Positions 10,130-24,466 are shown, numbered from the stretch's first letter. The stretch is 64,000 bases of DNA from Archangium sp. (GCF_035633935.1 NZ_DASQDY010000434.1:1007-65006); one strand, 5' to 3'. Program-made: numbers and translations. Notes: generated by a model not told the origin, from the sequence alone.

Positions 10130-10948
10130 TCAGGCGGACTCGGGCTCGTCTCCCTCCGGGGGAGGTACCGGCGCTCCACCCGGAGCCGGGCGCTTGCGCG
10201 CGAGGGGCATCAGCTCCGGGCCCAGGCCCAGGACGAAGGTGTTGCCGGGCGTGGTGCTCGCGCCACCGAGCGTCTGCAGCATGCGCAGGTGGAGCAGCGC
10301 CGGGCTCTGCTCCACCTGTCTGGCCGCGTTGGCCAGGTGGCGCAGGGTCGCCGACTCACCGCGCGCCTTCTCCAGCATGGCCTGCGCCTCCTTCTTCGCC
10401 TTGAGCGACTCGGCGAAGGCGCGGCGCAGCTCCGCCGGCAGCATCACGTCCTTCACCTCCACCGCCTCCACCGAGAGCCCGAACGCGCGCACCTCGCCGG
10501 CCACCCGCTCGCGCATCCGTTGCCCCAGGTCGAGCCGCCCCGACACCAGCTCCTCCAGGGGATGGCGGCCCACTTCCTCGCGCAGGGCGAGCTGCACGGC
10601 CAGGTAGAGCGCCTCGGTGAAGTTCTGCACGCGGTGCAGGGCCTGCTCGGGGTCCGCCACCGCGAAGCGCACGGCGATGCTCACCTTGAGGCCCACCTGC
10701 TCCTGGCTGAGCACGTCCTGGCCGGGCACGGTGAGGTAGCGCTGGCGCATGTCCACCTGCTGCGTGCCGTGGCCCTGGCGCAGTACCTTGTGGGCTCCGG
10801 GAGTCAGCACGCGCACGAAGCGCCCCTGGCGGTAGAGCAGGGTGGTGAAGCCCTCGGGGACGACCACCTTGCGCACGAGCGCCTTGTAGGCCACCGCGCC
10901 CAGGACGAGCGCCACCACCACCAGCGAGAGGAATCGGAACGTGTCCAC
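10130..10948 (-). CDS. Slipin/SPFH-domain membrane protein
   Basis: GTG 10948 after GAGG; N-terminal TM; VDMRQR...QDVLSQ, VEVKDVMLP, EKARGESATLRHLANAA. Confidence 0.88.
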   Translation of the reverse strand: MDTFRFLSLVVVALVLGAVAYKALVRKVVVPEGFTTLLYRQGRFVRVLTPGAHKVLRQGHGTQQVDMRQRYLTVPGQDVLSQEQVGLKVSIAVRFAVADPEQALHRVQNFTEALYLAVQLALREEVGRHPLEELVSGRLDLGQRMRERVAGEVRAFGLSVEAVEVKDVMLPAELRRAFAESLKAKKEAQAMLEKARGESATLRHLANAARQVEQSPALLHLRMLQTLGGASTTPGNTFVLGLGPELMPLARKRPAPGGAPVPPPEGDEPESA

Positions 10949-11309
10949 CGGTGCACACCTCGTTGGGTGAGAGACGTCGGCTCCGGGAGCCCCGGCGGTC
11001 CGGCGGGGGTTCTCCACCCGCATGGCCGTTCCGCGCGGTGCGCCTCGAAGGCGCTGGCTCCCGGAGCTTTCGTTGGGGAGTCGAACCCCGGCCTTTAACA
11101 GGCTGCCAGGAGGGGAGACCCCGATCCCAGGACACTCCCGGACCGATGTCCGCGAGCGCTGGAGAGGACTCCCCGAACCGGACGGACGCGCCAGGCCCGG
11201 TGGTCTGACACGGCCTCGCGGGAGCCCTCGTCGGCGTGGTGTTGGCTGACCGCTTCCAACGGGCCGCGGCCAGGTGGTCCTCTCCGCGGCGGCGTGATAC
11301 CCCCCTCCC

Positions 11310-12584
11310 GTGAGCGACACCTTCGCCCAGCTTGGCCTGTCTCCCGAGGCCCTCGACGCCCTGCGCCGCGCGCGGTTCTCGCGGCCCACCCCCATCCAGG
11401 CACAGGCCATCCCTCCGGCGCTCGAAGGCCGGGACATCATCGGCTGCGCCGCCACCGGCACGGGCAAGACGGCCGCTTACGTGCTGCCCCTGGTGGAGCG
11501 CTTCGCCGGCCGGAAGGGGACGTTGGGCCTGGTGCTGGCGCCTACCCGCGAGCTGGTGCAGCAGATCGCCGAGCCGGTGGGCTTCTTTGGTGAGTCGCGC
11601 GGCGTCACGCACGCGGTGGTCATCGGCGGCGAGGACATGGCGGCGCAGGCCGAGGCGCTGAAGCGGCGGCCCACGCTGGTGCTGGCCACGCCGGGGCGGC
11701 TGGTGGACCTGCTGGAGTCGCGAGTCGTGTCGTTCCCTCAGCTGGAGGCCCTGGTACTCGACGAGGCGGATCGGATGCTGGACATGGGCTTCCAGCCGCA
11801 GCTCGAGTCCATCCTCGCGGCGCTGCCCCGGCGTCGGCAGACGCTCCTGTTCTCCGCGACGCTGGGCCCGGACGTGAGCCGCTTCGCCCGCGAGGAGCTG
11901 AACCGGCCGGTGCGTGTGGAGGTGACGCGCAGCGGTACGCCCGCCGAGCGCGCCGAGCAGCGCTTGTACGTGGTGAAGCCCGAGGAGAAGTCCGCGCTGC
12001 TGCTCACGCTGCTGGCGCGGGACGAGGCGACGGCGCTCGTCTTCACGCGGACGAAGGAGCGGGCGGACAAGGTGCACAAGGCCCTGCAGCGGGCGGGGTA
12101 TCGGTGCGGAGTGCTGCACGCGGACCGGACGCAGAACCAGCGCAACCAGACGATGAAGGCCTTCCGCGAGGGCACGTACCGGTGCCTGGTGGCCACGGAC
12201 ATCGCGGCGCGCGGGCTGGACGTGGAGGACGTGGGGCACGTCATCAACTACGACCTGCCACACGCGCCGGAGGACTACGTGCATCGCATCGGCCGCACGG
12301 CGCGCGCCTCCGCGAGCGGCGTGGCCTCGACGTTCGCCACGGCGAAGGACCGGCAGATGGTCGAGAGCATCGAGAAGCTCATGCGGGGCGGGATTCCCCG
12401 AGCGACGGTGCCGCGCGAGGACCCCGTCTTCCAGGCGGAGTGGGAGCGCCACCAGGCCTCCCAGCGCGACCCGGGCCCACCCCAGAAGGACCAGGGTGTG
12501 TCCAAGAGGGCTCCAGGACAGGGTCCGGGGAGGCACGCGCGGTCGCACGGAAAGGGCTCGCGCTCGGGCCGGACGGAGGAGTGA
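11310..12584 (+). CDS. DEAD-box RNA helicase (RhlE-like)
   Basis: PTPIQ, ATGTGKT, PTREL, DEAD, SAT, HRIGRTAR. Confidence 0.95.
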   Translation: MSDTFAQLGLSPEALDALRRARFSRPTPIQAQAIPPALEGRDIIGCAATGTGKTAAYVLPLVERFAGRKGTLGLVLAPTRELVQQIAEPVGFFGESRGVTHAVVIGGEDMAAQAEALKRRPTLVLATPGRLVDLLESRVVSFPQLEALVLDEADRMLDMGFQPQLESILAALPRRRQTLLFSATLGPDVSRFAREELNRPVRVEVTRSGTPAERAEQRLYVVKPEEKSALLLTLLARDEATALVFTRTKERADKVHKALQRAGYRCGVLHADRTQNQRNQTMKAFREGTYRCLVATDIAARGLDVEDVGHVINYDLPHAPEDYVHRIGRTARASASGVASTFATAKDRQMVESIEKLMRGGIPRATVPREDPVFQAEWERHQASQRDPGPPQKDQGVSKRAPGQGPGRHARSHGKGSRSGRTEE

Positions 12585-12732
12585 CGCTCGGTCCCACAAG
12601 GAGGAGCGGACCCATCCGGTCCCAGGAGTGTCGGATTTTCAACGATCTGGCCTCGAAGTGCTCGGTTTCGGATATAGATTTTCACCCGATTTCAATTGAA
12701 TCCGGGAAGTTCCGATTCAAGTGGAGGATGCA

Positions 12733-13551
12733 ATGGGTGGATTTCGCGGAGTGACGTTGCTGATGGGCGTGTCCCTCTTGGGCGTGGCGTGTGGTGGGCC
12801 GGAAGCGGTCCCGCCTTCGGCCGCGGAGCTGACCTGGGAGGAGTTCCAGGCCCAGGCCTACAAGGAGCCCGGCACGGACGTGTACATCGTCGAGGGGGAC
12901 ATGGCCTTTGAGGGGACCGAGGGGCTGCGTCACTACTTCGACGCGTATGTCGCGCAGCAACTCGGGCAGCGCCAGGACGGCCTGACCCTCAATGCCTCGG
13001 GTGCGAAGTGGGCCGGCACCCAGCGGATGAACCTCACCTATTGTGTGAGCTCGTCCTCCTTCGGCTCGCGCTACAGCACCGTGGTGAGCGCGATGAACAG
13101 CGCGGCGGCGGCCTGGGAGGTCATCGCGGGCATCAACTTCGTCCACCTGAGCCAGTACGACTCCAACTGCACCTCGGCGCAGACGGGCGTGGTGTTCGAC
13201 GTGCGCCAGGTGAGCTCGGGAGGCCAGTACCTGGCGCGCGCGTTCTTTCCGGACGCCAGCCGCTCCGCGCGCGAGCTCCTCATCGATAGCAGTGTGTTCG
13301 GCACCATCGTGCCGCTCACGCTGACCGGCCTCCTGCGGCACGAACTGGGGCACACACTGGGCTTCGTCCACGAGAGCGATCACCCGGATGCTCCCCCCAC
13401 CGGCTGCTACTCAGGGGGACGTGGGATCGCGTTGACGGCCTACGATCCGTACTCCGTGATGAACAACCCGCAGTGCGGTGGCTCGTCGGGCGACCTCATC
13501 CTGACCACCCTGGACAGGCAGGGCGCCGCGAGCGCGTATCCCAGGATGTGA
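12733..13551 (+). CDS. Secreted Zn metalloprotease lipoprotein (metzincin, matrixin/M57-like)
   Basis: LLGVAC lipobox; IVEGDM; HELGHTLGFVH Zn motif; SVM Met-turn. Confidence 0.85.
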   Translation: MGGFRGVTLLMGVSLLGVACGGPEAVPPSAAELTWEEFQAQAYKEPGTDVYIVEGDMAFEGTEGLRHYFDAYVAQQLGQRQDGLTLNASGAKWAGTQRMNLTYCVSSSSFGSRYSTVVSAMNSAAAAWEVIAGINFVHLSQYDSNCTSAQTGVVFDVRQVSSGGQYLARAFFPDASRSARELLIDSSVFGTIVPLTLTGLLRHELGHTLGFVHESDHPDAPPTGCYSGGRGIALTAYDPYSVMNNPQCGGSSGDLILTTLDRQGAASAYPRM

Positions 13552-13606
13552 TTTCCGTGGGTGCGAGCCTGCTTGGGGGCGTCCTGGGCTCTACCTCTCG
13601 TGGGGT

Positions 13607-13760
13607 ACAGGGTGAATCAGGCACCCTGTCCGGGTCTTCGCCCTTTCTCAGCTTGCCGCCGTGCTTCTGGAAGAGGCAGGCGGCGATGTCCAGCCACAAG
13701 CGGGTCCGCCCTCCTTGCCTTGTTGGAGAAGTAGGGCTCGAGGACGCGGGGGCGATGCTC
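13607..13760 (-). pseudogene. Decayed duplicate of the 3' end of the sensor kinase gene at 17448-17598
   Basis: Shares colinear exact blocks with 17448-17598: ACAGGGTGAA, CAGGCACCCTG, CAGCTTGCCGCCGTGCT, CCGCCCTCCTT, GAAGTAGGGCTCGA. Reads EHRPRVLEPYFSNK versus EHRARIFEPYFTTK; contains indels. Confidence 0.85.
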
Positions 13761-13945
13761 TCGGAGAACTGTCCAGGCCGCCAAGAATGCTTGGTGGGCT
13801 GGGGCGGGGGCTAAGGGGCTAGCCCCTGGACTTTCGGCCGTCGAGACGACGTCGAACGCTTGAACTCGGTGGGCTACTTGAAAGATAACCCCGGAGGTCC
13901 CACCTCCCTGGTCAATAGTCACCCGGCAATGGCGAGATCTTTCGC

Positions 13946-14410
13946 ATGGATACCCTGACTCCCGCAGAACGAAGTGAACGAATGGCGCGGGTTCGTAACA
14001 AGGACACCACGCCGGAGCTCCGCGTTCGGCGCCTCGTCTCCGCGATGGGGTACCGCTACCGCCTGCACTACAAGAAGGTTCCCGGTCATCCGGATCTCGC
14101 CTTCCCGGGTCGCCGTAAGGCCGTCTTCGTGCACGGATGTTTCTGGCATCGCCACCCGGACCCCGCCTGTCCGCTCGCGCGCTTGCCGAAGTCGCGGCTG
14201 GACTTCTGGCTCCCGAAGCTCGAGGGCAACCGGGCCAGGGATCTGCGCAAGGAGCTGGAACTGAAGGAGCGTGGGTGGGACGTGCACGTCGTCTGGGAGT
14301 GCCAACTGCGAGACGAGGAGTCTCTGCGTCAGACCCTTCGCCTCTTCCTGGCGGGCCTTGACGCCACGGGAAAGGAGCACATGCATCCACCCGGATCATC
14401 GAGGATGTGA
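13946..14410 (+). CDS. vsr: Very short patch repair endonuclease
   Basis: MDTLTPAERSERMARVRNKDTTPE, PDL, FVHGCFWH, VWEC. Confidence 0.95.
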   Translation: MDTLTPAERSERMARVRNKDTTPELRVRRLVSAMGYRYRLHYKKVPGHPDLAFPGRRKAVFVHGCFWHRHPDPACPLARLPKSRLDFWLPKLEGNRARDLRKELELKERGWDVHVVWECQLRDEESLRQTLRLFLAGLDATGKEHMHPPGSSRM

Positions 14411-14478
14411 CCGCACCTGCTGCTCAGTGAAGCATAGAGCTTGCTCTATGGCCCAAGCTGCTGCATGGATCGCGCACC

Positions 14479-15657
14479 ATGGACTCCATCGAGCTGTTCA
14501 CCGGTGCTGGTGGGCTGGCCCTCGGTACGCATGTCGCTGGTTTCCATCATCTCGGCCTGTACGAGTGGGATGAGGACGCCTGTGAGACGCTTCGCGAGAA
14601 CGCCCGCGCGGAGGCGCTCCCGGGCATTCGCGAGTGGCGCGTCCATCAAGCCGACGTGCGGATAAATTCCTACGCGATCTTCGGCCAAGGGGTGTTGGAC
14701 TTGGTGGCTGGTGGCGCTCCATGCCAACCGTTCAGCCTTGGTGGCAAGCACCGGGCCCAGGATGATTCCCGCAACATGATTCCGGAGTTCGTGCGGGCGG
14801 TGCGTGAGATGCGGCCGCGTGCCTTCATCCTGGAGAATGTGAAGGGGCTGACCCGTCAGAGCTTCCGCAACTACTTCGAGTACATCCGCCTCCAACTCAC
14901 CTATCCCACCGTCACGAAGAAGCGTGACGAGGAGTGGACCGCGCATCTCCACCGTTTGGAGGAGGTGAAGACGAAGGGACGCCACAAGGGGCTCCAGTAC
15001 AACGTCATCGCCGAACTGCTGAACGCCGCCGACTATGGAGTGCCTCAGGTACGCGAGCGCGTGTTCGTCGTTGGTTTCCGAGCGGACACGGACTTGGAGT
15101 GGCATTTCCCCGAACCCACGCACAGCTTGGACTCCCTCGTATGGGAGCAACACATCACGGGCGATTACTGGAAGCGCCATGGTGTTCGCTCCCCTCCCAG
15201 CAAGCCCGTCCGATTGGGCTTGAAGCTGAGCGAGTTGCAAGAGAGGGATGAGCCCTTCCCGACGAAGCCATGGAGAACCGTGCGCGACGCCATCGCGGAT
15301 CTGCCCGAGCCTCGGGTGGATCGCGAGTCCAGCAAGTTCTCGAACCACAAGCTCAACCCCGGAGCGAAGGCGTATCCGGGGCACACCGGTAGTCCCTTGG
15401 ACATGCCCGCTAAGACGCTGAAGGCCGGAGTGCACGGGGTGCCAGGGGGAGAGAACATGCTGGTCCTGCCTGACGGACGACTGCGCTACTTCACTGTGCG
15501 CGAGGCGGCTCGGCTTCAGACGTTCCCAGATTCCTGGCACTTCGAGGGAGCTTGGTCCGAGGCGATGCGTCAACTCGGTAATGCAGTGCCCGTGGACCTC
15601 GCGGCTGTGGTCGCCCGCAGCGTGGCCGCCAAGTTGAGGACCGGCGATGGCCACTGA
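14479..15657 (+). CDS. DNA (cytosine-5) methyltransferase
   Basis: ELFTGAGG (motif I), GGAPCQPFS (IV), ENV (VI), QVRERV (VIII), RLQTFP (IX), GNAV (X). Confidence 0.95.
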   Translation: MDSIELFTGAGGLALGTHVAGFHHLGLYEWDEDACETLRENARAEALPGIREWRVHQADVRINSYAIFGQGVLDLVAGGAPCQPFSLGGKHRAQDDSRNMIPEFVRAVREMRPRAFILENVKGLTRQSFRNYFEYIRLQLTYPTVTKKRDEEWTAHLHRLEEVKTKGRHKGLQYNVIAELLNAADYGVPQVRERVFVVGFRADTDLEWHFPEPTHSLDSLVWEQHITGDYWKRHGVRSPPSKPVRLGLKLSELQERDEPFPTKPWRTVRDAIADLPEPRVDRESSKFSNHKLNPGAKAYPGHTGSPLDMPAKTLKAGVHGVPGGENMLVLPDGRLRYFTVREAARLQTFPDSWHFEGAWSEAMRQLGNAVPVDLAAVVARSVAAKLRTGDGH

Positions 15658-16297
15658 CGAGTACAATCCCCTCGACTACGCCAATCTCACCAAGAATTGC
15701 GTACAGGAGTTGATGAATCGGGGCCCGTACCCGCTTGAGTTTCCGGAGCCCTTCCCCGGGTCTGGTGTGTACGCGCTCTTCTACACGGGAAACCTCGCTC
15801 TTTATCGGCCTATCCGTTCATTGGATGCGACATGGCCGATCTACGTAGGCAAGGCGGTGCCACCTGGCGCGAGAAAGGGGGCGAAGTCCTCGGCTACCTC
15901 CCGGGCGCTCTTCCAGCGTCTTCGTGAGCACCGTGAATCCATTGGAGCAACTGAAAACCTCTCCCCGGATGATTTCGTGTGCCGCTACCTCGCGGTGACT
16001 CCGTTGTGGATCACCATGGCGGAGCGGTTCCTCATCGAGAACTTCCAGCCCATTTGGAATGTCTGTATCGAGGGATTCGGTCTCCACGACCCGGGGAGTG
16101 GGCGCTACCAGGGGCAGCGAAGCTGGTGGGACATTCTCCATCCGGGGCGGTCCTGGGCCAAGCGGCTGAAAGAGACCCGCACCAGGGCCGAAGCGGATAA
16201 GCGTGTGAAGGAGTTCTTGAAGAATCACAAGCCAGGATCCGCAATGCCGGCACTTGATGCCGATCCGTCTCTCTTCATGGAGGATGATGAAGACTGA
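15647..16297 (+). CDS. Eco29kI-family GIY-YIG type II restriction endonuclease
   Basis: GSGVYALFY...IYVGKA, RLREHRESI, AERFLI...QPIWN...GFGLHDPGSGR, WDILHPGRSWA; overlaps the MTase stop. Confidence 0.88.
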   Translation: MATDEYNPLDYANLTKNCVQELMNRGPYPLEFPEPFPGSGVYALFYTGNLALYRPIRSLDATWPIYVGKAVPPGARKGAKSSATSRALFQRLREHRESIGATENLSPDDFVCRYLAVTPLWITMAERFLIENFQPIWNVCIEGFGLHDPGSGRYQGQRSWWDILHPGRSWAKRLKETRTRAEADKRVKEFLKNHKPGSAMPALDADPSLFMEDDED

Positions 16298-16487
16298 GAT
16301 GTTGCTGAACTGGGCGCGCTCACTTGGTTTGGCATCGGGCTGGATTGGACACTTGAGCATCGGTGCACTTCTATGGCTGCACACCACTCTCGGTCTTGCA
16401 CTCCCTGCCTGTCTCAAGAAGTGGTTTGCCCAGAGGTGACCCCAAGCGTCAATTACTCTGGCTCAGTGGGGTGCTACGGTCCACCAC

Positions 16488-17369
16488 GTGACCCGATCTG
16501 CCGACCCATCTTTCGCTGCGGACTTCAAGCTCAGCATTACGAAGGCTCTTGCTGATCAGCTTGCCGAGAAACTGGTTCCGCTGAAGCCGCACCCGCTGAC
16601 CACCGAAGCCATTTCCTCTCTTGAACGCCGACCTGGTGTTTATTTGCTGTTGTACAAGGGACACCGGGTTTATGTGGGGAAGGCGCAGCAGTCGTTACCC
16701 AAGAGGCTGCGAAACCACTGGAACAAACTGCGCGGTCGCGACAAACTGGCTATTGAGGACATGACTTTCGTCTGTTTATATGTTGACGAGGATCTCGATG
16801 CCGCTGCGCCCGAGAAACTGCTTATCAAGCGATACCGGGAGCAGGGAGGGATTGACGGTGTCCCTTGGAACACGAATGGCTTTGGCAACAAGGATCCTGG
16901 TCGTCGCCGTGACATGAGCGAGGTCGAGGCGAACCACTTCGATGCCCTATACCCGGTGCGACTGACGTTCGACGGACTGCGGCTCACGGTGGGGCCGACA
17001 ACGGTTGGAAAGTTGCTGGTCGAAATCAAGACACAATTGCCTTATAATCTGCGCTTCGAGAAGAAGGACCCTCGTGCGCTTAAAGATTATCAAATTAAGA
17101 TCGAGGTTCCCGATAAACAGTTGAGGGCCGAGCGGGCCATTGGTCTTGTCGTTCGCGCGCTGCCTGAGGGGTGGCAAGCCACTGCGCTGCCGGGATACCT
17201 GATTCTCTACCGAGAGCAGGTGGAGTACCCGAGCGCGTTGCGGTGGTGGCGTCGCGATGGTGATGAGGTTGTAGTTACGGAACACGTCGCGCGATTGGCA
17301 CCCTCGGCGGAGATCCGTGAGTTGGATGAGGACGAATCTGGGTCGCGGGATGGTGAAGATGACGAGTGA
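16488..17369 (+). CDS. Second GIY-YIG nuclease with C-terminal extension
   Basis: PGVYLLLY...VYVGKA, KRLRNH, PEKLLI, WNTNGFGNKDPGRRR. Confidence 0.8.
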   Translation: MTRSADPSFAADFKLSITKALADQLAEKLVPLKPHPLTTEAISSLERRPGVYLLLYKGHRVYVGKAQQSLPKRLRNHWNKLRGRDKLAIEDMTFVCLYVDEDLDAAAPEKLLIKRYREQGGIDGVPWNTNGFGNKDPGRRRDMSEVEANHFDALYPVRLTFDGLRLTVGPTTVGKLLVEIKTQLPYNLRFEKKDPRALKDYQIKIEVPDKQLRAERAIGLVVRALPEGWQATALPGYLILYREQVEYPSALRWWRRDGDEVVVTEHVARLAPSAEIRELDEDESGSRDGEDDE

Positions 17370-17394
17370 CCAAGAGCACGTACGGCGCGCTGCG

Positions 17395-19077
17395 TCAGGT
17401 TCGCGTGGATGCGCGGCAGGTGCTCCCTCGGGGCTCGCGGGGCAGGGACAGGGTGAAGCAGGCACCCTGACCGGGCTCGCCGCCCACGTCCAGCTTGCCG
17501 CCGTGCTCCTGGAGGATGCGCGCGGCAATCGCCAGTCCCAGGCCCGTGCCGCCCTCCTTCGTCGTGAAGTAGGGCTCGAAGATGCGGGCGCGGTGCTCGG
17601 GTGGAATTCCCGGGCCGCTGTCCCGCACTTCCACCACCGCCTCCCGGTCGTTGCCTCGCACGCGCACGTGCAGAGCCCCGCCTCCCTTTGCCATCGCCTC
17701 CTCGGCGTTCTTCACCAGGTTCACCAGTACCTGCGTGAGCTGGTCCCGGTCCGCCTTCGCCATCACCCCCGGCTGCACCTCCGAGTGGATGTGGATGCCC
17801 GGCGGCGGCGAGGCGTAGAGCGACAGCACGTTCCGCGCGAGCTCGCCCAGGTCCACCGGCTCCAGTTGCGGCTTGGGCAGGCGCGCGAACTGGCTGAACT
17901 CGTCCACGATCCGCTTCAGCCGGTCCACCTCTTCCAGGATGACGCCCGCGCTGTCTCGGAAGAGGGCGGGGAAGCGCGCGTCCCGCGCGTCCTGCACCGC
18001 CATCAGCGTCTCCAGCGACATGCGGATGGGCGTCAGCGGGTTCTTGATTTCATGCGCCAGCCGCCGCGCCACCTCCTGCCACGCGGCCACGCGCTCGCTG
18101 GCCACCAGCCGCTCCGTGGTGGAGCGCAGCTCGGTCGTCATGTGGTTGAACGTCTTCACCAGCTCGCCCACCTCGCCCGTGGCCTTCACCTGCACCTGCA
18201 CGTCCAGTGCGCCCTCGCCCACGCGCCTCGCGCCCGAGGTGAGTGCCTCCACCGGCTGGGTGATGCGCCGGGCCATCAGCAGCCCCAGCAGCACCGCGAA
18301 GCTCAGCCCCAGTCCGGCCAGCAGCAGGAAGGAACGCAGCACGCCCACCGTGGCCTCGCGCTCGGCCGCGCGGCTGAAGACGAGCCGCACCGTGGCGGCC
18401 TCTCCCAGCGGCAGCACCCGGGCCACCGTGGGGGGCGTGACGCCGCCGGCCCTCGCCACCACCGCGTCCCCGGACAGCAGCGCCACCTCCGCCCCGGTGA
18501 GCCGTGACAGGTGCGCCGCCAGCCCCTGGTCCAGCAGCACCCCGCCCACCACCCACAGCCGCGAATCCCCGTAATCCACCGGCCTCGCGGTGATGAGCGC
18601 GGGCACCTCGCGCAAGCCCTCGTCCCCTCGCACCGTCACCTTCACCGGCACGGGCTTGGGTGACTTCTCCCGCGTCACCGCGAAGAGTGCCGGGTCCGGA
18701 TCTCCCCGGCGCGCGGGCAGATGCCCGGAGGACAGTGTGGTGCCCTTGCGGTCGAAGAGGGTCAGCACGGTGAGGCCCCGGCTCTTCATCAGCGGCTGGG
18801 CGGTGTCCGCGCGGATGGCACGGGCGGTGTCCGCGCGAGCCTCGCGCGCCAGGTCCTCCATGGCGGGGCTCTCCACCAACTCCTCCACCGCCCGGCGCGC
18901 GTTGGCGGCGGCTCGCTCGAGGGCCTCCTGCGCGGAGGCGGTGGCACCATCCATGCGCGCGTCCAGCCCTCGCGACAGCGTGGCGCGCAGCCGCGTCAGC
19001 GTGAAGGGCACCATTACCGCCAGCGGCACCAGCGCCAGCAGGGCGAAGGCGAGTGCCAGCCGCGTCCTCAGTCTCAT
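17395..19077 (-). CDS. crdS: HAMP sensor histidine kinase, probable CrdS ortholog
   Basis: True start ATG 19077 (MRLRTRLALAF), ATGA overlap with the SBP stop; two TMs, HAMP, RLAHEIKNPLTP H-box, NLVKNA, DSGPG, FTTKEGGTGLGL. Operon with PBP1A, FG-GAP and SBP matches M. xanthus crdS as I recall it. Confidence 0.8.
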   Translation of the reverse strand: MRLRTRLALAFALLALVPLAVMVPFTLTRLRATLSRGLDARMDGATASAQEALERAAANARRAVEELVESPAMEDLAREARADTARAIRADTAQPLMKSRGLTVLTLFDRKGTTLSSGHLPARRGDPDPALFAVTREKSPKPVPVKVTVRGDEGLREVPALITARPVDYGDSRLWVVGGVLLDQGLAAHLSRLTGAEVALLSGDAVVARAGGVTPPTVARVLPLGEAATVRLVFSRAAEREATVGVLRSFLLLAGLGLSFAVLLGLLMARRITQPVEALTSGARRVGEGALDVQVQVKATGEVGELVKTFNHMTTELRSTTERLVASERVAAWQEVARRLAHEIKNPLTPIRMSLETLMAVQDARDARFPALFRDSAGVILEEVDRLKRIVDEFSQFARLPKPQLEPVDLGELARNVLSLYASPPPGIHIHSEVQPGVMAKADRDQLTQVLVNLVKNAEEAMAKGGGALHVRVRGNDREAVVEVRDSGPGIPPEHRARIFEPYFTTKEGGTGLGLAIAARILQEHGGKLDVGGEPGQGACFTLSLPREPRGSTCRASTRT

Positions 19078-20450
19078 CTCCGGGCTCCCGGGACACCCGT
19101 CACCGCCGGCTGGAGCCAGGCGCCGTCCAGCATGGGCAGCCCCTGGGCGTCGAAGACGAGCCCTCCCACCTCCGGCGCCGCGCGCAGCGCCAGTCCCTGC
19201 GCGTAGAGGGGCAGCAGCGGTATGGACGGGGCGAGCGCCAGGGCCCGCTCGCGCGCCTTCGCGTCTCGTGCCGCGGGATCCGCCAGGGCGCCGATGCGCG
19301 GCAGCTCCACCCCGAGCAGATCCTTCCGGCCCGCGGCGTCCAGCACCACGGCCAGGGCCGGGCCGGGCACGGGTGGCAGCAGCAGCGAGTGGAGCATCAG
19401 CTCGTAGTCCCCCTTCGCCCAGCGGGCGCGCAGCCCGGCGCGCGGCAGGGGCTCCAGGGCCACGGCGTAGCCCCGGTCGTGCAGCCGCACCTGGAGGCGC
19501 TCGGCCACCGCGCGCTGGTCCTCGCTGCCCGCGTCGTAGAGGAGCGTTACCTTGCGCCCGGCCTGGGGCGCGGGGGGCGGTGCGGAGCGGGTGACCGGGG
19601 ACTGGAGGAGAATCGCGGGGGGCAGCAGGTGCGGCATGGGCACGGCCGGCCCGTGCACGAAGAGGCGCGTGAGGTCCTCGCGGTCGAGGGCGCTCTCCAC
19701 TGCCTGCCGGAAGTCCGGAGGCACGCGTCGCGGCGACCAGGCCAGGTAGGTGGCGTAGAGCGCCGCGCCGGAGGCCGTGCCCGCGTCGGGAAGCACGCCG
19801 AGCGCCACCTGGGCCTCCTGGGTCGTCCACAGGCGCGAGAGGCCGCGCTCGTCGGTGGGCAGCAGGCGCAGTCTGTCCAGGTACGGCCGGCCTCCGGTCC
19901 ACGCGAGCCGCGCCTCGACGGAGTTGGAGCCAGCGGCGGAGAAGGGGCCGAGCGCGGCGGGGATGGAGCGTGGCGGGGCGAGCGCGGGATGGCACAACGC
20001 GCGCTCCATATCCGGCCACGGGAAGGCGAGCGCCAGCTCCAGGGTGTCGCCGGTGGGGGAGAGCTGCCGGCCCTCGCCACGCAGCGGGAAGAGGAGGGCG
20101 CGGTAGGGTGAGGGGGCCTCGGGGCCGGTGAGCTGCGCCCAGGCCCGGACGAGCGCGTTGGCCTGAGCGGGCGAGGGCAGGCCGAGGCGCACCACCTGCG
20201 CGGAGGGGCGCGACAGCTCGCGGGCGAGCGTGGGCGAGAGGTGCCCGTCCGGGGCCAGGTGGCAGGCGGGCCGCGAGAGGAGCCCGAGCAGGGTGGCCTC
20301 GGTGGGGGAGTCGGCGAGAGACGGCTCTCCGGGCTCGGCGGGGCCGGTGTGGGCGACGCGCAGCTCGCCTCCGTATGGAACGCGGCCGGCGGCGAGCGAT
20401 GGCGTGGCGCCGAGGAGGAGGAGGCGGGCGAGAGCGTGGCGGAGCGTCAT
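19074..20450 (-). CDS. Family 5 solute-binding-like periplasmic protein (no transporter partners nearby)
   Basis: Signal peptide; RVPYGGELRV; GPF; PYLDRL; FRQAVESALDREDL; AERLQVRL; WAKGDYELML. Confidence 0.75.
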   Translation of the reverse strand: MTLRHALARLLLLGATPSLAAGRVPYGGELRVAHTGPAEPGEPSLADSPTEATLLGLLSRPACHLAPDGHLSPTLARELSRPSAQVVRLGLPSPAQANALVRAWAQLTGPEAPSPYRALLFPLRGEGRQLSPTGDTLELALAFPWPDMERALCHPALAPPRSIPAALGPFSAAGSNSVEARLAWTGGRPYLDRLRLLPTDERGLSRLWTTQEAQVALGVLPDAGTASGAALYATYLAWSPRRVPPDFRQAVESALDREDLTRLFVHGPAVPMPHLLPPAILLQSPVTRSAPPPAPQAGRKVTLLYDAGSEDQRAVAERLQVRLHDRGYAVALEPLPRAGLRARWAKGDYELMLHSLLLPPVPGPALAVVLDAAGRKDLLGVELPRIGALADPAARDAKARERALALAPSIPLLPLYAQGLALRAAPEVGGLVFDAQGLPMLDGAWLQPAVTGVPGARR

Positions 20451-21832
20451 GGCACACCCTGGCGCAGGAGGAAGAGCTCGCCGGTGCCGTCCGGCCTGGT
20501 GAGGCCCACCACCACCTCGCGGCGCTTGTCCCCGTCCAGGTTGGCCGTCACCACGTGCAGGGCCCGGCCGGCGGGCAGGGGCCCCTGCCAGAGGGGCTCG
20601 TGGGCGGTGGGAGCGCTCCCGCTCGTCTTGAAGACGCGCAGGACGTCCGGCGAGGGTTGGAGCTCGGGCGAGGTGGTGAGCAGCTCCGGCGTCCCATCCC
20701 CGTCCAGGTCCCCGAGCGCGCTGCCCGCGCCAAGGCCGGAGAGAGGCACGGGCGCCACCGAGGGCCGGGCGAAGAAGGAGGCCGAGCCATCCGGGTGGAC
20801 GAGGAGGAGGCGGGAGTTGGCGGAGCTGAAGGTGGTGAATCGGGCCGGCACGCCCGTGAGGCGCTGCTCCCCGTTGCCGAGCCGCACCTCGGGAGCGAAG
20901 GCCGTCTGGCCCGGCACGAAGCCGCCGCGCGCGTCCGGGCCCAGGGGCACGGCCTCGAGCCGGGAGACGAAGCGCAGCGAGCCGTTCTCCAGCGCCAGCA
21001 CCTCGCCGTGGGCGAAGCGGGTGGAGGCGGCGGCGATGCGCGGTGGCCCGGAGAGGATGGCGAGTGCGCCGAAGGGCTCGCGGGTAGGGGCGGGGCCGGG
21101 GGGCAGCACGTCCAGCGAGCGCTCCGCGACGAGGCTCCCCTCCGCGGTGAAGACGTGCACGGAGCGCTCGGTGAGCGCGACCACCTCGTCCCTGCCGTCC
21201 CCATCGAGGTCCCCGGCGGCGAGCGCGGCGGGCGGGGAGGGCAGTCGCGCCAGCACGGCGCCCAGCAGGCGCGGGGGGCGCGACTCCTCGGGTGTGGCGG
21301 CGGGCGTGCGCGGGGACGGGGGCTCCACGGCGGCGAGCGCGAGCGCCGCGGCATCCGCCTCCACGGCCTGGGCGATGGCGGCGGCGGGCGAGGGGGCTCG
21401 GGTGGCGGTGCGGCCGGACCAGAAGTTCACCCAGGTGCCGAATGCGTCACCGTGGGCGCGCAGCTCCCCGGCCTCCACGCCGAGGGTGAGCCGCACCAGG
21501 GCGCGGGTGCCCTGCTCGCGGGCGAGGGACTCGGCGGCCTCGGGCGAGGGCGCCTCCAGCACCACGGGGGCGAGCCCGGCGGAGGCGAGGCGCGAGGCGA
21601 GCAGCGTCCCGAAGGCGCGCCGCAGCTCGGGGGCGCCGCCGGAGAGGGACAGGGCCACGGGGGGTTCGGGCTTCATCGCCCGCACGTCCGCGGCCACGGC
21701 CTGGGCGAGCCGCTCGAGGGCCGGAGCGGCCGAAGTGGACGGGGCGGCCGGGGCGGACTGGGGCGGAGGGGGTTGGGCGGCCGGAGCGGAGAGCGCGGAC
21801 AGCAGCAGCGCGGCGGCGAGGGCCCGGCTCAC
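20447..21832 (-). CDS. FG-GAP/VCBS repeat secreted protein
   Basis: GDLDGDGRDE, GDLDGDGTPE, ANLDGDKRRE repeats; signal peptide; GTGA overlap with the PBP1A stop. Confidence 0.85.
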   Translation of the reverse strand: MSRALAAALLLSALSAPAAQPPPPQSAPAAPSTSAAPALERLAQAVAADVRAMKPEPPVALSLSGGAPELRRAFGTLLASRLASAGLAPVVLEAPSPEAAESLAREQGTRALVRLTLGVEAGELRAHGDAFGTWVNFWSGRTATRAPSPAAAIAQAVEADAAALALAAVEPPSPRTPAATPEESRPPRLLGAVLARLPSPPAALAAGDLDGDGRDEVVALTERSVHVFTAEGSLVAERSLDVLPPGPAPTREPFGALAILSGPPRIAAASTRFAHGEVLALENGSLRFVSRLEAVPLGPDARGGFVPGQTAFAPEVRLGNGEQRLTGVPARFTTFSSANSRLLLVHPDGSASFFARPSVAPVPLSGLGAGSALGDLDGDGTPELLTTSPELQPSPDVLRVFKTSGSAPTAHEPLWQGPLPAGRALHVVTANLDGDKRREVVVGLTRPDGTGELFLLRQGVP

Positions 21833-24435
21833 AGACCCCCCCGGCTACCTTCCTGGAGGAAGAAGTCGCTCGGGCTGACGTGGCCGGGCGGGGGCGCCTC
21901 GGCGGTGGGCTGGGTGCCCTCGAGGAAGGACTCGAGCCGGCCGGGCACGGAGTTGCCCGCGAGCAGGCCGCTGGCGGGGTCGATGCGCACCTGCACCACG
22001 CCCTGGGGCACCTCGAACTCGCGCGCGGGCAGGCCGGCGTGGGCGGCGCGCATGAAGCCCAGCCAGATGGGGAGGGGGGCTCGCCCACCCGTCTCGGTGC
22101 TACCCAGGGGCGAGTGGTCGTCGAAGCCCACCCACGCGCTGGCGACCCAGTCCGCGGTGTAGCCGGAGAACCAGGTGTCGCGGTTCTCGCTGGCGGTGCC
22201 CGTCTTGCCGGCGGCGGGGCGGTTGAGCTCCGTCACCTCCCTGGCCGTGCCCTCCTCCACCACGCTGCGCATCAGCGACGTGGTGAGGTAGGCCACCGCC
22301 GGGGGCAGCGTCTCCTCGAAGGCCGGCTGGTGCTCCTCGAGCACCTTGCCCCGCGCGTCCGTCACCTTCAGCAGCAGGAGCGGCTCGGCGTAGCGGCCAT
22401 TGGCCTGCAGCGTGGCGTAGGCGTTGGCGGCCTCCAGCAGGGTCACCTCGCCGGTGCCCAGCGCCAGGGTGAGGTTCTCCGGCAGCTCCGAGCGGATGCC
22501 GGCGCGGCGGGCGAAGTCGATGGCGGTGGCGGGGGTGATGGCCTCGATGAGGCGCACGGACACCGTGTTCTTGGATTTGGTGAGCGCCTGGCGCAGCGTC
22601 ATGGGGCCGTCGAAGGCGCGGTCGTAGTTCTGCGGCTTCCACGTCTTGCCGGTGTACGGGTCGCGGATGGCCTCGGGGGCGTCGTTCACCGTGCTGATGG
22701 GGGTGTAGCGCCCGCTGCCGAGCGCGGCGCCGTAGAGGAAGGGCTTGAAGGACGAGCCGGGCTGGCGCTTCGCCTGGGTGGCGCGGTTGAAGGGCGAGCT
22801 CGCGAAGTCGTAGCCGCCCACCAGTGCCACCACGTGGCGGTTGTGCGGGTTGATGACGACGAGGCCGCCCTGCACGAGCGGCACCTGGTCCAGCGTGGCC
22901 TCCAGCAGCGCGGGGGCGGGCGTGACGCGCGTCACGCGCACCAGGACGATATCGCCGGGCTTCATCACGTCCGACATCTTCGAGGGGGCGCTCTTGCCCT
23001 TGAGACGGGCCCAGGTGACGGTGGAGAAGGGGATTTCGGCGGTGCGGCCCACCAGGTCCACGCGGGCTTTCTTGCCCGAGTCATCCACCTGGGTGACGAA
23101 GCCGGCCACGCGCAGGCCCTCCTTGAGGGGCTGGAGCTGCACATGGAGCGCGAGCTTCTCGTCGGCGGAGAGCTTCGCGTCCTCCTCTTCCTCGGCGGGG
23201 GTGGTTACCACCGGCTCCTCGGCCGGCGCGGGTTGCGGCGCGCCAGCCTGGGCGAGCGAGGAGAGGTCGGCCACGTAGGCCCCCTCCTTCTGGCGCCGGC
23301 CCGCCTCTTCGATCTGCTTGGAGATGAGGGGCTTGAGGCGCTCGAAGCGCGCGGGCTCCAGCGTGCCGAGGGCGCCACGGTAGCCCTGGCGCCGGTCCAC
23401 GGCCTCCAACCCCTTGCGCACCGCCTCGTCGGCGACGGCCTGGAGCTTCGGGTCCATGGCGATGTCCACGCGCAGGCCTCCGGTGAGCACGACCTCACTG
23501 CCGTAGCGGGCGACGAGCGTGCGGCGGATCTCCTCGGCGTAGTAGGGGCCCACCTCGGGGGGCGGCCGCGGGGCGAGCACGATGGGCTTGTCCAGCTCCT
23601 TGGCCACCACTTCCTTCGGGACGAAGCCTTGCCCGGCCATCTGCCCCAGCACGTAGCGCTGGCGCTGTTTGGCCTTGACGATGTTCTTCTCCGGGTTGAT
23701 GCGGTTGGGTGACTGCACCGTGCCCGCGAGCACCGCGGCCTCGCCGACGCTCAGGTCCCTGGCGTGCTTGCCGAAGTAGTAGAGCGCGGCCTCCTCGATG
23801 CCGTCGCGGCCCTGCCCGTAGTTGGACTGGTTGATGTAGAGGCTGAGGATCTGATCCTTGGTGAGTGCCTCCTCCACGCGCGGGGTGAGGATCCACTCGC
23901 GAGCCTTGCGCGAGAAGCTGCGCTCGGGCGTGAGCAACATGTTCTTCACCACCTGCTGCGTGATGGTGGAGGCGCCGGACTTGCGGCTGCCGGGGATGAG
24001 GTTCTTCACGGCGGCGCGCACGATGCCGAAGAAGTCGAGGCCCTCGTGCTTGTAGAAGTCGGCGTCCTCGGCGGCGAGGAAGGCGTTGCGCACGTGGGGA
24101 GGCAGATCCTTGATGTCCACCACGGTGCGACGCCCCTGGGGCATGAAGAACTCGGCGCACACGGAGCCGCCGGCACACCGCACCTTGGTGACCTGGGGCA
24201 GGCTGTAGGTACGCAGCGCCTCCACCGAGGGCAGGTCCCGGCTGTAGTAGAGGTAGCAGCCCACGACGGCGAGCACGAGCAGCACGGTGCCCACGGCGGC
24301 CAGGACGAGGAGCCGCTTCGTCCAGTGCCACAGCCGGGCGCCCAGGCCGGGACGGGTCGGAGGTGCCGGGGGGGCCGGAGGAGTGGCGGGAGGATGGGAA
24401 GGAGGCTGGGAGCTCATCTCGCGGGCCGGGTTCAT
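21829..24435 (-). CDS. mrcA: Penicillin-binding protein 1A (bifunctional transglycosylase/transpeptidase)
   Basis: AAEDADFYKHEG, GASTITQQVVKN, RKARE; SSFK (SxxK), SKN (SxN), KTG. Start could also be 24417. Confidence 0.93.
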   Translation of the reverse strand: MNPAREMSSQPPSHPPATPPAPPAPPTRPGLGARLWHWTKRLLVLAAVGTVLLVLAVVGCYLYYSRDLPSVEALRTYSLPQVTKVRCAGGSVCAEFFMPQGRRTVVDIKDLPPHVRNAFLAAEDADFYKHEGLDFFGIVRAAVKNLIPGSRKSGASTITQQVVKNMLLTPERSFSRKAREWILTPRVEEALTKDQILSLYINQSNYGQGRDGIEEAALYYFGKHARDLSVGEAAVLAGTVQSPNRINPEKNIVKAKQRQRYVLGQMAGQGFVPKEVVAKELDKPIVLAPRPPPEVGPYYAEEIRRTLVARYGSEVVLTGGLRVDIAMDPKLQAVADEAVRKGLEAVDRRQGYRGALGTLEPARFERLKPLISKQIEEAGRRQKEGAYVADLSSLAQAGAPQPAPAEEPVVTTPAEEEEDAKLSADEKLALHVQLQPLKEGLRVAGFVTQVDDSGKKARVDLVGRTAEIPFSTVTWARLKGKSAPSKMSDVMKPGDIVLVRVTRVTPAPALLEATLDQVPLVQGGLVVINPHNRHVVALVGGYDFASSPFNRATQAKRQPGSSFKPFLYGAALGSGRYTPISTVNDAPEAIRDPYTGKTWKPQNYDRAFDGPMTLRQALTKSKNTVSVRLIEAITPATAIDFARRAGIRSELPENLTLALGTGEVTLLEAANAYATLQANGRYAEPLLLLKVTDARGKVLEEHQPAFEETLPPAVAYLTTSLMRSVVEEGTAREVTELNRPAAGKTGTASENRDTWFSGYTADWVASAWVGFDDHSPLGSTETGGRAPLPIWLGFMRAAHAGLPAREFEVPQGVVQVRIDPASGLLAGNSVPGRLESFLEGTQPTAEAPPPGHVSPSDFFLQEGSRGGL

Positions 24436-24466
24436 GGGGCGCGGGGACAACAAAAGGTGGACGACG

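What the first reader, a model, noticed from the sequence alone, without database searches (positions are those of the whole stretch)
13607..17598. Restriction island bracketed by a duplicated crdS 3' end
Seen: about 150 bp encoding the kinase's F/G2 boxes and terminal strands occurs intact at 17448-17598 and as a decayed same-orientation copy at 13607-13760, with the lower-GC RM genes between them. This is the footprint expected when an element integrates into a gene's 3' end and supplies a replacement terminus. Here the target is a developmental signalling kinase rather than a tRNA, and no integrase remains. The odd tail PRGSTCRASTRT may come from the element.
Basis: partly seen in the sequence, partly recalled or inferred. 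Interest (0 to 1): 0.75.

Follow-up and report, generated by a model that had tools for sequence, protein, structure and literature searches.

The report
Old insertion scar beside crdS kinase
A decayed second copy of the last ~185 bases of a developmental sensor-kinase gene marks where a restriction-modification cassette was inserted long ago, at a spot where related Archangium species keep collecting anti-phage genes. This is a known kind of scar at a previously undescribed hotspot.

Summary
Window 13595-13781 (- strand) is a frameshifted, stop-containing relic of the kinase 3' end at 17434-17618: 75-77% identity, E 1.7e-25 against the 10.8-Mb genome, and a far better match than any paralogue. 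The two direct repeats bracket a lower-GC Vsr / C5-methylase / Eco29kI-type nuclease / second GIY-YIG cassette that has no integrase or transposase.

Synteny (PBP1a, FG-GAP, SBP_bac_5, then a HAMP-HisKA-HATPase kinase) fits crdS. The genus is Archangium.

Across 16 Archangium genomes, the gap between the crdS stop and a convergent DEAD-box helicase gene ranges from about 0 to more than 18 kb. Its cargo is mostly defence genes, and I found no tyrosine or serine integrase among the predicted ORFs scanned.

Extra crdS 3' fragments recur:
- orthologous relics beside the same cassette in G013 and G005;
- at least one further event (G016, G008);
- translocated fragments in G017 and in this genome (contig C243).

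[quoted passage not shown] That class is already described for RM systems.

The island is larger than the bracket (12634-17432, including an M10 peptidase paralogue). The odd tail arose by stop-codon loss into post-stop DNA.

The parts
17395..19077 (-). crdS-like NtrB-type sensor kinase (HAMP-HisKA-HATPase_c), 560 aa
   Evidence: Pfam. Start MRLRTRL at 19077. Orthologues at 89-94% aa identity in 16 Archangium genomes. Upstream synteny PBP1a / FG-GAP / SBP_bac_5 matches the crdS cluster described in PMC3147164.
17434..17618 (-). Proximal (live) direct repeat: last ~185 nt of conserved kinase coding sequence (G2 box to ...CFTLSLPRE)
   Evidence: Homology with all orthologues ends at window 17433, within a few nt of the ancestral stop.
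17395..17432 (-). Tail codons (PRGSTCRASTRT + stop) read through after loss of the ancestral stop
   Evidence: 15 orthologues end ...PRE[R/H/Q]* or PREPR*. The window has CCC CGA where others have CGC TGA. The following DNA is homologous to the cassette's left end in G013 and to post-stop DNA of a G017 fragment that keeps an intact TGA.
13595..13781 (-). Distal decayed direct repeat (crdS 3' pseudogene relic)
   Evidence: 75% identity over 191 columns, six indels, TGC->TGA. Best genome-wide match is the adjacent kinase. Orthologous relics in G013 and G005 share derived changes, and form a clade inside the Archangium crdS group.
13946..14410 (+). Vsr very-short-patch repair endonuclease
   Evidence: Pfam PF03852, E 2e-28.
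14479..15657 (+). C5 cytosine DNA methyltransferase (Type II M)
   Evidence: Pfam PF00145, E 3e-57. PADLOC MTase_II, E 2e-130.
15647..16297 (+). Eco29kI-family GIY-YIG restriction endonuclease (Type II R)
   Evidence: Pfam PF09517, E 9e-59. PADLOC REase_II, E 2e-51.
16488..17369 (+). Second, divergent GIY-YIG / Eco29kI-like protein
   Evidence: Pfam PF09517 E 2e-7 and PF01541 E 1.5e-6. Shared only with G013.
12721..13551 (+). Secreted M10 (matrixin-like) peptidase paralogue. It lies inside the variable region but outside the repeat bracket.
   Evidence: Pfam PF00413. GC3 is 0.87. Present at this site only in G000. At most 63% aa identity to family members elsewhere.
12634..17432 (.). Whole variable (hotspot) region relative to the empty sites of G003 and G015
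   Evidence: Flank homology maps window 17433 and 12633 to adjacent bases in L031 and L029.
11310..12584 (+). Conserved right-flank gene: DEAD-box helicase, convergent with the kinase
   Evidence: Pfam DEAD + Helicase_C. Conserved at 85-90% nt in all relatives, at a variable distance from the kinase.

Best explanation
Window 13595-13781 is a dead, drifting relic of the crdS 3' end. Together with the live 3' end (17434-17618) it forms ~185-bp direct repeats around a 3.65-kb Type II RM cassette: vsr, a C5 methylase, an Eco29kI-type nuclease and a second GIY-YIG gene, transcribed convergently with crdS.

The repeats are the scar of an old, integrase-independent insertion placed at the crdS stop codon with a long target duplication.

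Most likely route (inferred): a circular DNA carrying the cassette plus a 5'-truncated crdS 3' segment recombined by a single homologous crossover with the chromosomal crdS end (Campbell-type). That leaves one complete gene kept by selection and one truncated copy that decays.

The crdS | DEAD-helicase gap is a genus-wide hotspot that has repeatedly gained, lost and reshuffled mostly defence cargo. In this genome it later gained an M10 peptidase paralogue distal to the relic, and crdS lost its stop (TGA->CGA), adding 11 residues.

Shown: the repeat, its crdS origin, the cassette content, the absence of mobility genes, the hotspot, and the recurrence and age of the event. Inferred: the recombination route.
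For: Repeat and crdS origin:
-.
- All extra fragments nest within the Archangium crdS clade. The G000, G013 and G005 relics form one clade, with modest support of 81/82 on a 236-column alignment.
- In the alignments, the G000 and G005 relics share the TGC->TGA stop (that stretch is deleted in G013). The G000 and G013 relics share derived substitutions.

No mobility genes or RNA targets in 12634-17432.

Hotspot:
- The kinase-to-helicase distance ranges from ~30 nt (G003, G015) to more than 18 kb (G006).
- Cargo is modular and mostly defence: Eco29kI-type RM, other Dcm/Vsr/MTaX1 sets, McrBC, a Type IV Mrr-helicase, DrmA/DrmB plus a NERD helicase, and an HNH_2 nuclease.
- Only ordinary IS elements (IS21, ISAzo13) were found, and no integrase.

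Recurrence of crdS 3' duplications with a fixed 3' limit and variable 5' limits:
- At the hotspot: G016 (102 nt, 88%, arrangement kinase-X-copy-A) and G008 (195 nt, 78%, kinase-X-Y-copy-A). Elsewhere in the genome: G017 (354 nt and ~90 nt). All of these stop at the kinase stop.
- G000 contig C243 carries 219 nt, collinear with module Y as in G008. Here the 3' end is cut off by a dispersed repeat.

Campbell-type prediction met in G016: the distal copy is contiguous with native downstream module A and groups with G001's native end (97/86). The proximal end next to the cargo carries a cluster of different synonymous variants.

Age: 4-fold-site divergence for G000-G013 is 0.31 in the kinase, against 0.34 (dcm), 0.45 (vsr) and 0.50 (nuclease).

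Against: - The repeats are only 75-77% identical, so the original junctions and any short core site are no longer readable.
- The 'empty' sites may be secondary deletions. The HNH_2 module A is widespread and may be the ancestral occupant.
- The patchy distribution of the cassette (G000, G013, G006, part of G005) on the local tree needs either many losses or transfers.
- The Campbell route is inferred from architecture. No circular intermediate or recent, identical-repeat example was seen.
- The G016 argument rests on a handful of sites in about 100 nt.
- A trans-acting recombinase encoded elsewhere cannot be excluded.
- My ORF selection for the relatives used length and GC3 heuristics. It could have missed small or low-GC recombinase remnants, notably in G010, whose 11-kb region gave almost no Pfam hits.
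Confidence: 0.7

Rival explanations
1. One reading: a discrete site-specific integrative element (attP containing a crdS 3' segment) integrated through its own tyrosine or serine recombinase. It supplied the replacement terminus and later lost the integrase.
For: - The left junction of independent events lies within a few nt of the crdS stop.
- crdS fragments travel with cargo to other loci.
- G016's proximal terminus looks foreign and its distal one native.
- Elements of this kind are known, for example e14 in icd (from memory).
Against: - I found no integrase among the predicted ORFs scanned across the 14 occupied hotspot regions, or beside the translocated fragments.
- The cargo of the separate events is unrelated (RM versus X/Y), and there are no shared element ends or inverted repeats.
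- Repeat lengths vary from 102 to 354 nt.
- A fixed 3' limit is also expected simply because inter-strain homology ends at the stop codon.
Confidence: 0.15
2. A local tandem duplication of the crdS 3' end arose on its own (slippage or unequal crossing-over). The RM cassette later inserted between the two copies by an unrelated route, such as double crossover in the flanks after uptake of a relative's DNA.
For: - Hotspots without mobility genes are thought to exchange cargo by flanking homologous recombination (PMC10250203).
- The present data cannot order duplication and insertion.
Against: - It needs two events where one suffices.
- Cargo-plus-distal-fragment arrangements recur in at least two independent cases and move as units (Y plus fragment in G008 and C243).
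- No genome shows a cargo-free tandem duplication.
Confidence: 0.08
3. An IS91/ISCR-type rolling-circle (one-ended) transposition captured and moved crdS 3' DNA together with adjacent cargo.
For: - In G017 a 354-nt crdS fragment lies directly downstream of an IS91-family Y2 transposase.
- That fragment ends at ...GAAC, the IS91 target/termination tetranucleotide as I recall it.
Against: - There is no IS91 remnant in the window or in G013, G005, G016 or G008 at the hotspot.
- The window junction has GAGC, not GAAC.
- It explains translocated fragments better than the bracketed cassette.
Confidence: 0.05
4. The 13.6-kb segment is a chance or paralogue-derived similarity (a conserved HATPase_c G2 box), unrelated to the cassette.
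For: Histidine-kinase G2 regions are conserved. Dozens of paralogues give 70-76% hits to the same query.
Against: - The adjacent kinase is the best hit by about 50 bits or more.
- The alignment runs to the exact end of the gene.
- Orthologous relics sit at the same place in G013 and G005.
- The fragments nest within the Archangium crdS clade, apart from the other-genus orthologues used as outgroups. This is a short alignment with a partly unresolved backbone.
Confidence: 0.02

Closest known systems
RM gene insertion with long target duplication (Furuta, Abe & Kobayashi 2010, PMC2853133; first described in H. pylori in its ref. 37)
   Same: - R and M genes flanked by long direct repeats (46-423 bp in that paper).
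- Only one repeat copy at the empty site.
- No transposase or integrase.
- The insert is lower in GC.
- Repeats can overlap a gene's 3' end.
   Different: - Here the repeats are old (75% versus more than 90% identity).
- The comparison is between species rather than strains.
- The same target has been used repeatedly, also for non-RM cargo.
- Copies of the target fragment have moved to other loci.
Core defence hotspots bounded by conserved genes (for example cDHS1/2 of P. aeruginosa, PMC10250203; E. coli hotspots, PMC10121019)
   Same: - A fixed pair of core flanks.
- Size varies from empty to tens of kb.
- The cargo is defence-rich.
- The site is not attributable to one mobile-element type.
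   Different: - That paper suggests flank-mediated exchange, which would leave no scars.
- This site keeps scars (crdS 3' duplications) that point to one-sided or target-duplicating insertion.
- The host is a myxobacterium and the left flank is a developmental kinase.
Integrative elements that target the 3' end of a protein gene and carry a replacement end (e14 and phage 21 in icd of E. coli; recalled from memory, not checked here)
   Same: - A direct repeat of a gene's 3' end brackets foreign DNA.
- The gene stays intact.
- The displaced copy is a pseudogene.
   Different: - Those elements encode their own integrase and have defined att cores.
- None was found here, and the cargo is heterogeneous.
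Campbell-type integration of non-replicating circular DNA by a single homologous crossover (a standard genetic tool in Myxococcus; from general knowledge)
   Same: It predicts exactly this architecture: an intact gene, then cargo, then a 5'-truncated copy followed by native downstream DNA.
   Different: It is known as a laboratory procedure. Its natural use for capturing defence cassettes is an inference here.

Membership tests
[quoted passage not shown] | Both an R and an M gene lie inside the inserted segment | tested here: met
   C5 MTase 14479-15657 and Eco29kI-family REase 15647-16297.
[quoted passage not shown] | Insert shorter than 20 kb | tested here: met
   3.65 kb between the repeats. 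The whole variable region is 4.8 kb.
[quoted passage not shown] | Direct repeats longer than 30 bp that align with a single-copy target in a genome lacking the insert | tested here: met
   The repeats are about 185 bp. G003, G015, G001 and G002 have one copy. Caveats: the comparison is between species, and the empty sites may be secondary.
[quoted passage not shown] | No other mobile-element genes in the insert, and the repeat is not a dispersed repeat | tested here: met
   Only vsr, M, R, GIY-YIG and M10 ORFs are present. There are no tRNA or Rfam hits. Genome-wide hits other than crdS-derived fragments are at paralogue level.
Integrase-borne integrative element with replacement 3' end (e14/icd type) | A tyrosine or serine recombinase encoded at one end of the element | tested here: not met
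   None in window 12634-17432. None among the predicted ORFs scanned in the hotspots of the relatives, or beside the translocated fragments.
Integrase-borne integrative element with replacement 3' end (e14/icd type) | A defined identical att core at both junctions, and conserved element ends across occurrences | tested here: inconclusive
   The repeats are too decayed (75%) to read a core. The cargo and ends of separate events are unrelated.
Integrase-borne integrative element with replacement 3' end (e14/icd type) | An excised circular form | not testable with these tools
Core defence hotspot | Conserved flanking core genes with variable, defence-enriched content across genomes | tested here: met
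   crdS and the DEAD-box helicase flank 0 to more than 18 kb of variable DNA in 16 genomes. Cargo includes RM, McrBC, a Type IV REase, DrmA/B and an HNH nuclease.
CrdS (Mxan_5184) orthologue | HAMP-DHp-CA kinase at the end of a PBP1a / FG-GAP / SBP_bac5 gene cluster (PMC3147164, Fig. 1B) | tested here: met
   Pfam on window 17395-24543; paper text. The transmembrane segments were not tested.
CrdS (Mxan_5184) orthologue | Reciprocal-best sequence match to M. xanthus CrdS, and phosphotransfer to CrdA | not tested
   No M. xanthus sequence was retrieved. The nearest named relative seen is Corallococcus at 78% aa. The biochemistry is not testable here.

The most novel reading that the evidence does not exclude
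The crdS 3' end acts as a reusable homology 'address label'. Defence and other cassettes excised with a crdS 3' fragment (by repeat x repeat recombination or fragment circularisation) can re-enter the crdS terminus of any related strain by a single crossover, with no integrase. This would build and turn over a defence hotspot. The scattered crdS fragments (G000 C243, G017 L036 and L118) would be such units that landed elsewhere. If so, it is an integrase-free, homology-addressed cassette-exchange system in naturally transformable myxobacteria.
Probability: 0.25. Interest if true: 0.6.

Novelty: new member of a known kind. Interest (0 to 1): 0.4.

Why it matters
How mobility-gene-free defence hotspots acquire their cargo is an open question. 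Most models invoke scar-free exchange through both flanks.

This site keeps datable scars: truncated copies of the flanking gene's end. They argue for one-sided, target-duplicating (Campbell-like) capture, used repeatedly at the same nucleotide position across a genus.

It also marks a practical place to look for new defence genes in Archangium/Cystobacter genomes. Insertions there can alter the C-terminus of a developmental kinase: here an 11-residue extension, in G009 a longer one.

For annotation:
- 13595-13781 should be flagged as a crdS pseudogene fragment.
- The 260-aa (13617-14399, -) and 747-aa (10356-12599, -) ORFs are artefacts.

Tried and rejected
- **Paralogue origin of the relic:** rejected by genome-wide BLAST and a tree.
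- **tRNA, tmRNA or ncRNA target at the junction:** none found.
- **Terminal inverted repeats or a transposon-like structure around the cassette:** none beyond chance-level short matches.
- **Promoter/terminator scan:** uninformative.
- **Integrase search:** Pfam on the selected ORFs of the hotspot in 11 relatives and around the three translocated fragments gave only IS21, ISAzo13, a DDE IS and one IS91-type transposase.
- **Marker error:** I first used a 747-aa ORF (10356-12599, -) as the conserved right-flank marker. It proved to be an antisense artefact over the DEAD-box helicase and Band7 genes. The DNA-level synteny conclusions are unaffected.
- **First local tree:** built from loci in mixed orientation and discarded. 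One search is the valid one.
- **Other genera:** orthologue loci (Corallococcus and MAGs) show no helicase or RM downstream within the DNA held, so the hotspot as defined is only documented within Archangium.
- **A further short crdS-end remnant at the X/RM junction of G013:** possible, but too weak to call.
Full report
**1. The observation**

The window carries a 560-aa HAMP-HisKA-HATPase_c kinase on the minus strand (17395-19077). A local alignment of its coding strand with the region near 13.6 kb gives 143 identical positions in 191 columns. It spans kinase 17434-17618 against 13595-13781, in the same orientation.

- The BLAST core is 77% over 159 nt (13604-13760 versus 17445-17598).
- The copy has six small indels and a TGC->TGA change, so it cannot encode the G2 box and terminal strands any more.
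- Conceptually it still reads EHRPRVLEPYFSNK...HGGKL...PGQGA*FTL, against EHRARIFEPYFTTK...HGGKL...PGQGACFTL in the kinase.
- In the whole 10.8-Mb assembly the copy's best hit is the neighbouring kinase (113 bits, E 1.7e-25). The second hit (59.9 bits) is itself a crdS-derived fragment on contig C243. Genuine paralogues score 45 bits or less.
- GC is 0.55-0.64 between the copies and 0.70-0.78 outside.

**2. What lies between and around**

All on the plus strand, between the repeats:
- Vsr (13946-14410);
- a C5 methyltransferase (14479-15657);
- an Eco29kI-family GIY-YIG nuclease (15647-16297);
- a second divergent GIY-YIG protein (16488-17369).

There is no integrase, transposase, tRNA or Rfam RNA, and there are no terminal inverted repeats.

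Distal to the relic lies a secreted M10 peptidase gene (12721-13551). Next comes the 3' end of a DEAD-box helicase gene (11310-12584, plus strand) that is convergent with the kinase. The long minus-strand ORF at 10356-12599 is an antisense artefact.

Upstream of the kinase are SBP_bac_5, FG-GAP and PBP1a genes. This is the cluster that Willett & Kirby describe upstream of crdS (PMC3147164). They also note an insertion separating crdS from crdA in M. xanthus and Stigmatella. The crdS label is therefore supported by architecture and synteny, but it was not tested by direct comparison with Mxan_5184. A named relative places the genus as Archangium.

**3. Relatives**

Sixteen same-genus genomes hold the orthologue at 89-94% aa identity. 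I fetched 10-20 kb downstream of each.

- Homology to the window stops within a few nucleotides of the kinase stop in every genome. It resumes at the helicase flank (window about 12633) after a gap that ranges from ~30 nt (G003, G015) and 190 nt (G002) to more than 18 kb (G006).
- The region absent from the empty sites is therefore window 12634-17432. This is larger than the repeat bracket and includes the M10 gene.
- That M10 gene is host-like in codon use and occurs at this site only in this genome. It is a diverged paralogue of a family scattered elsewhere.

The variable DNA is modular:
- **Module A:** an HNH_2 nuclease, in eight genomes on both sides of the local tree (two of them only as remnants), so possibly the ancestral occupant.
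- **Module B:** a large secreted protein.
- **Module X:** a Cys-rich secreted protein plus a lipoprotein.
- **Module Y:** two unknown genes.
- **The Eco29kI-type RM cassette:** G000 and G013 (both with giy2), G006 (without giy2), and only the vsr end in G005.
- **Other defence sets:** Dcm/Vsr/MTaX1 sets, McrBC, a Type IV Mrr-helicase, DrmA/DrmB with a NERD helicase, and DUF2381 plus Ser/Thr kinase pairs.
- **Ordinary IS elements:** IS21 and ISAzo13.

I found no tyrosine or serine recombinase in any of them, within the limits of my ORF selection.

**4. Recurrence of the duplication**

A search with the kinase 3' end finds extra, above-paralogue fragments in several genomes.

- **(a) G013 and G005.** Both carry relics at the vsr end of the cassette, as in the window. 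The G000 and G005 relics share the TGC->TGA stop. The G000 and G013 relics share derived substitutions. The three form one clade, with modest support. G006 keeps only the start of the relic.
- **(b) G016.** The arrangement is kinase-X-copy(102 nt, 88%)-A.
- **(c) G008.** The arrangement is kinase-X-Y-copy(195 nt, 78%)-A.
- **(d) G017.** It has a 354-nt fragment (96% to its own kinase) next to an IS91-family transposase in another defence island. It also has a ~90-nt fragment at a third locus.
- **(e) The window's own genome.** Contig C243 carries a 219-nt fragment (86%) collinear with module Y, exactly as in G008.

All fragments nest inside the Archangium crdS clade, apart from the other-genus orthologues used as outgroups. 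Except for C243, which is cut off by a dispersed repeat, their 3' limit is the end of the kinase. Their 5' limits differ.

**5. Age**

Four-fold-site divergence between G000 and G013 is 0.31 in the kinase, 0.34 in dcm, 0.45 in vsr and 0.50 in the nuclease. For G000-G006 it is 0.22 in the kinase, 0.43 in dcm and 0.45 in vsr. The cassette is thus at least as old as these species splits and is not a recent arrival. This fits the heavy decay of the relic.

**6. The tail**

- Twelve of the 15 orthologues end ...LSLPRE[R/H/Q]*. G017 ends PREPR*, and G009 has a long extension.
- The window reads GAG CCC CGA GGG where the others read GAG CGC TGA G...
- The next ~27 nt resemble the DNA following an intact TGA in the G017 fragment L118 (18 of 29 positions, p about 3e-4). 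Further on they match the left end of the cassette in G013, where module X separates it from the kinase.

So the tail is translated post-stop, cassette-linked DNA, exposed by loss of the stop codon.

**7. Mechanism**

The architecture is an intact gene, then cargo, then a 5'-truncated copy, then native downstream DNA. That is what a single homologous crossover with a circular molecule carrying a crdS 3' segment produces. [quoted passage not shown]

The fixed 3' limit needs no site-specific enzyme, because homology between strains simply ends at the stop codon, where the variable DNA begins.

In the youngest at-locus case (G016):
- the distal copy continues into native module A and groups with G001's native end (97/86);
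- the proximal end next to X has a cluster of different synonymous variants.

This is as predicted if the incoming DNA supplied the live terminus, but it rests on few sites. For the window itself, which copy is 'original' can no longer be told.

Rivals:
- An integrase-borne element remains possible with a trans-acting or lost recombinase. It lacks any positive evidence.
- IS91 capture explains the G017 fragment, not the window.
- An independent tandem duplication is less parsimonious.

**8. Comparison and verdict**

This is a new example of a known kind of scar, sitting in a hotspot of the kind described for Pseudomonas and E. coli (PMC10250203, PMC10121019). The modestly new points are:
- the same gene end was used repeatedly across a genus;
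- the scars persist where such hotspots are suggested to exchange cargo without scars;
- the target fragment is dispersed with cargo to other loci.

Noticed in passing
L036 9521-11098 (G017, Archangium gephyra PVMSAZ, about 7.43 Mb): A 354-nt crdS 3' fragment (96% to that genome's own kinase) lies directly downstream of an IS91-family Y2 transposase. It ends at ...CGCGAAC; GAAC/GTTC is the IS91 target/termination tetranucleotide as I recall it. The setting is an island with MTaX1-Dcm, IS21, GmrSD and a DDE IS. This looks like one-ended rolling-circle capture of a former distal repeat.
   Followed up: partly
L118 9637-9749 (G017, about 8.70 Mb): A third crdS fragment (~90 nt, 92%) keeps the ancestral stop (GAGCGCTGAGGG) plus ~27 nt resembling the window's tail DNA. 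It sits between an XRE-type gene and unknown ORFs.
   Followed up: partly
Own genome contig C243:1401-3127 (L119): A 219-nt frameshifted crdS fragment (86%) is joined to two unknown genes (module Y), with the same junction as in G008's crdS hotspot. A short dispersed repeat cuts the fragment off. A weak HNH_4-like ORF lies next to it.
   Followed up: partly
window 12721-13551: The secreted M10 (matrixin-like) peptidase is a diverged, host-codon-usage paralogue (at most 63% aa identity to family members elsewhere). It occurs at this site only in this genome.
   Followed up: partly
window 10356-12599 (-) and 13617-14399 (-): These long ORFs (747 aa and 260 aa) are antisense artefacts. They lie over the DEAD-box helicase/Band7 genes and over vsr plus the relic, respectively. 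High-GC DNA yields such ORFs readily.
   Followed up: yes
window 13946-17369: One C5 methylase sits with two different GIY-YIG nucleases. The second (16488-17369) is shared only with G013 (79% aa) and is absent from the G006 version of the cassette. The Eco29kI-type nuclease of G006 is only about 60% identical (60-62%) while the methylase is 93%. This suggests replacement of the nuclease partner.
   Followed up: partly
L034 686-3429, L032 2796-5426, and window 1-2651: DUF2381 plus Ser/Thr protein kinase gene pairs recur as cargo in the crdS hotspot of G012 and G005.
   Followed up: no
Own genome, e.g. C243 5481-5594 (reverse strand coordinates 13027-13140): A dispersed repeat of about 114 nt matches more than 30 contigs of this assembly at 88-97%. 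It is MITE-like and may explain some contig breaks.
   Followed up: no
L022 567-700 (G009): In G009 the crdS stop is also lost at the junction. This gives a tail of about 28 residues (RSCHLTGKELDAAGG...). Hotspot turnover has therefore altered the kinase C-terminus more than once.
   Followed up: no
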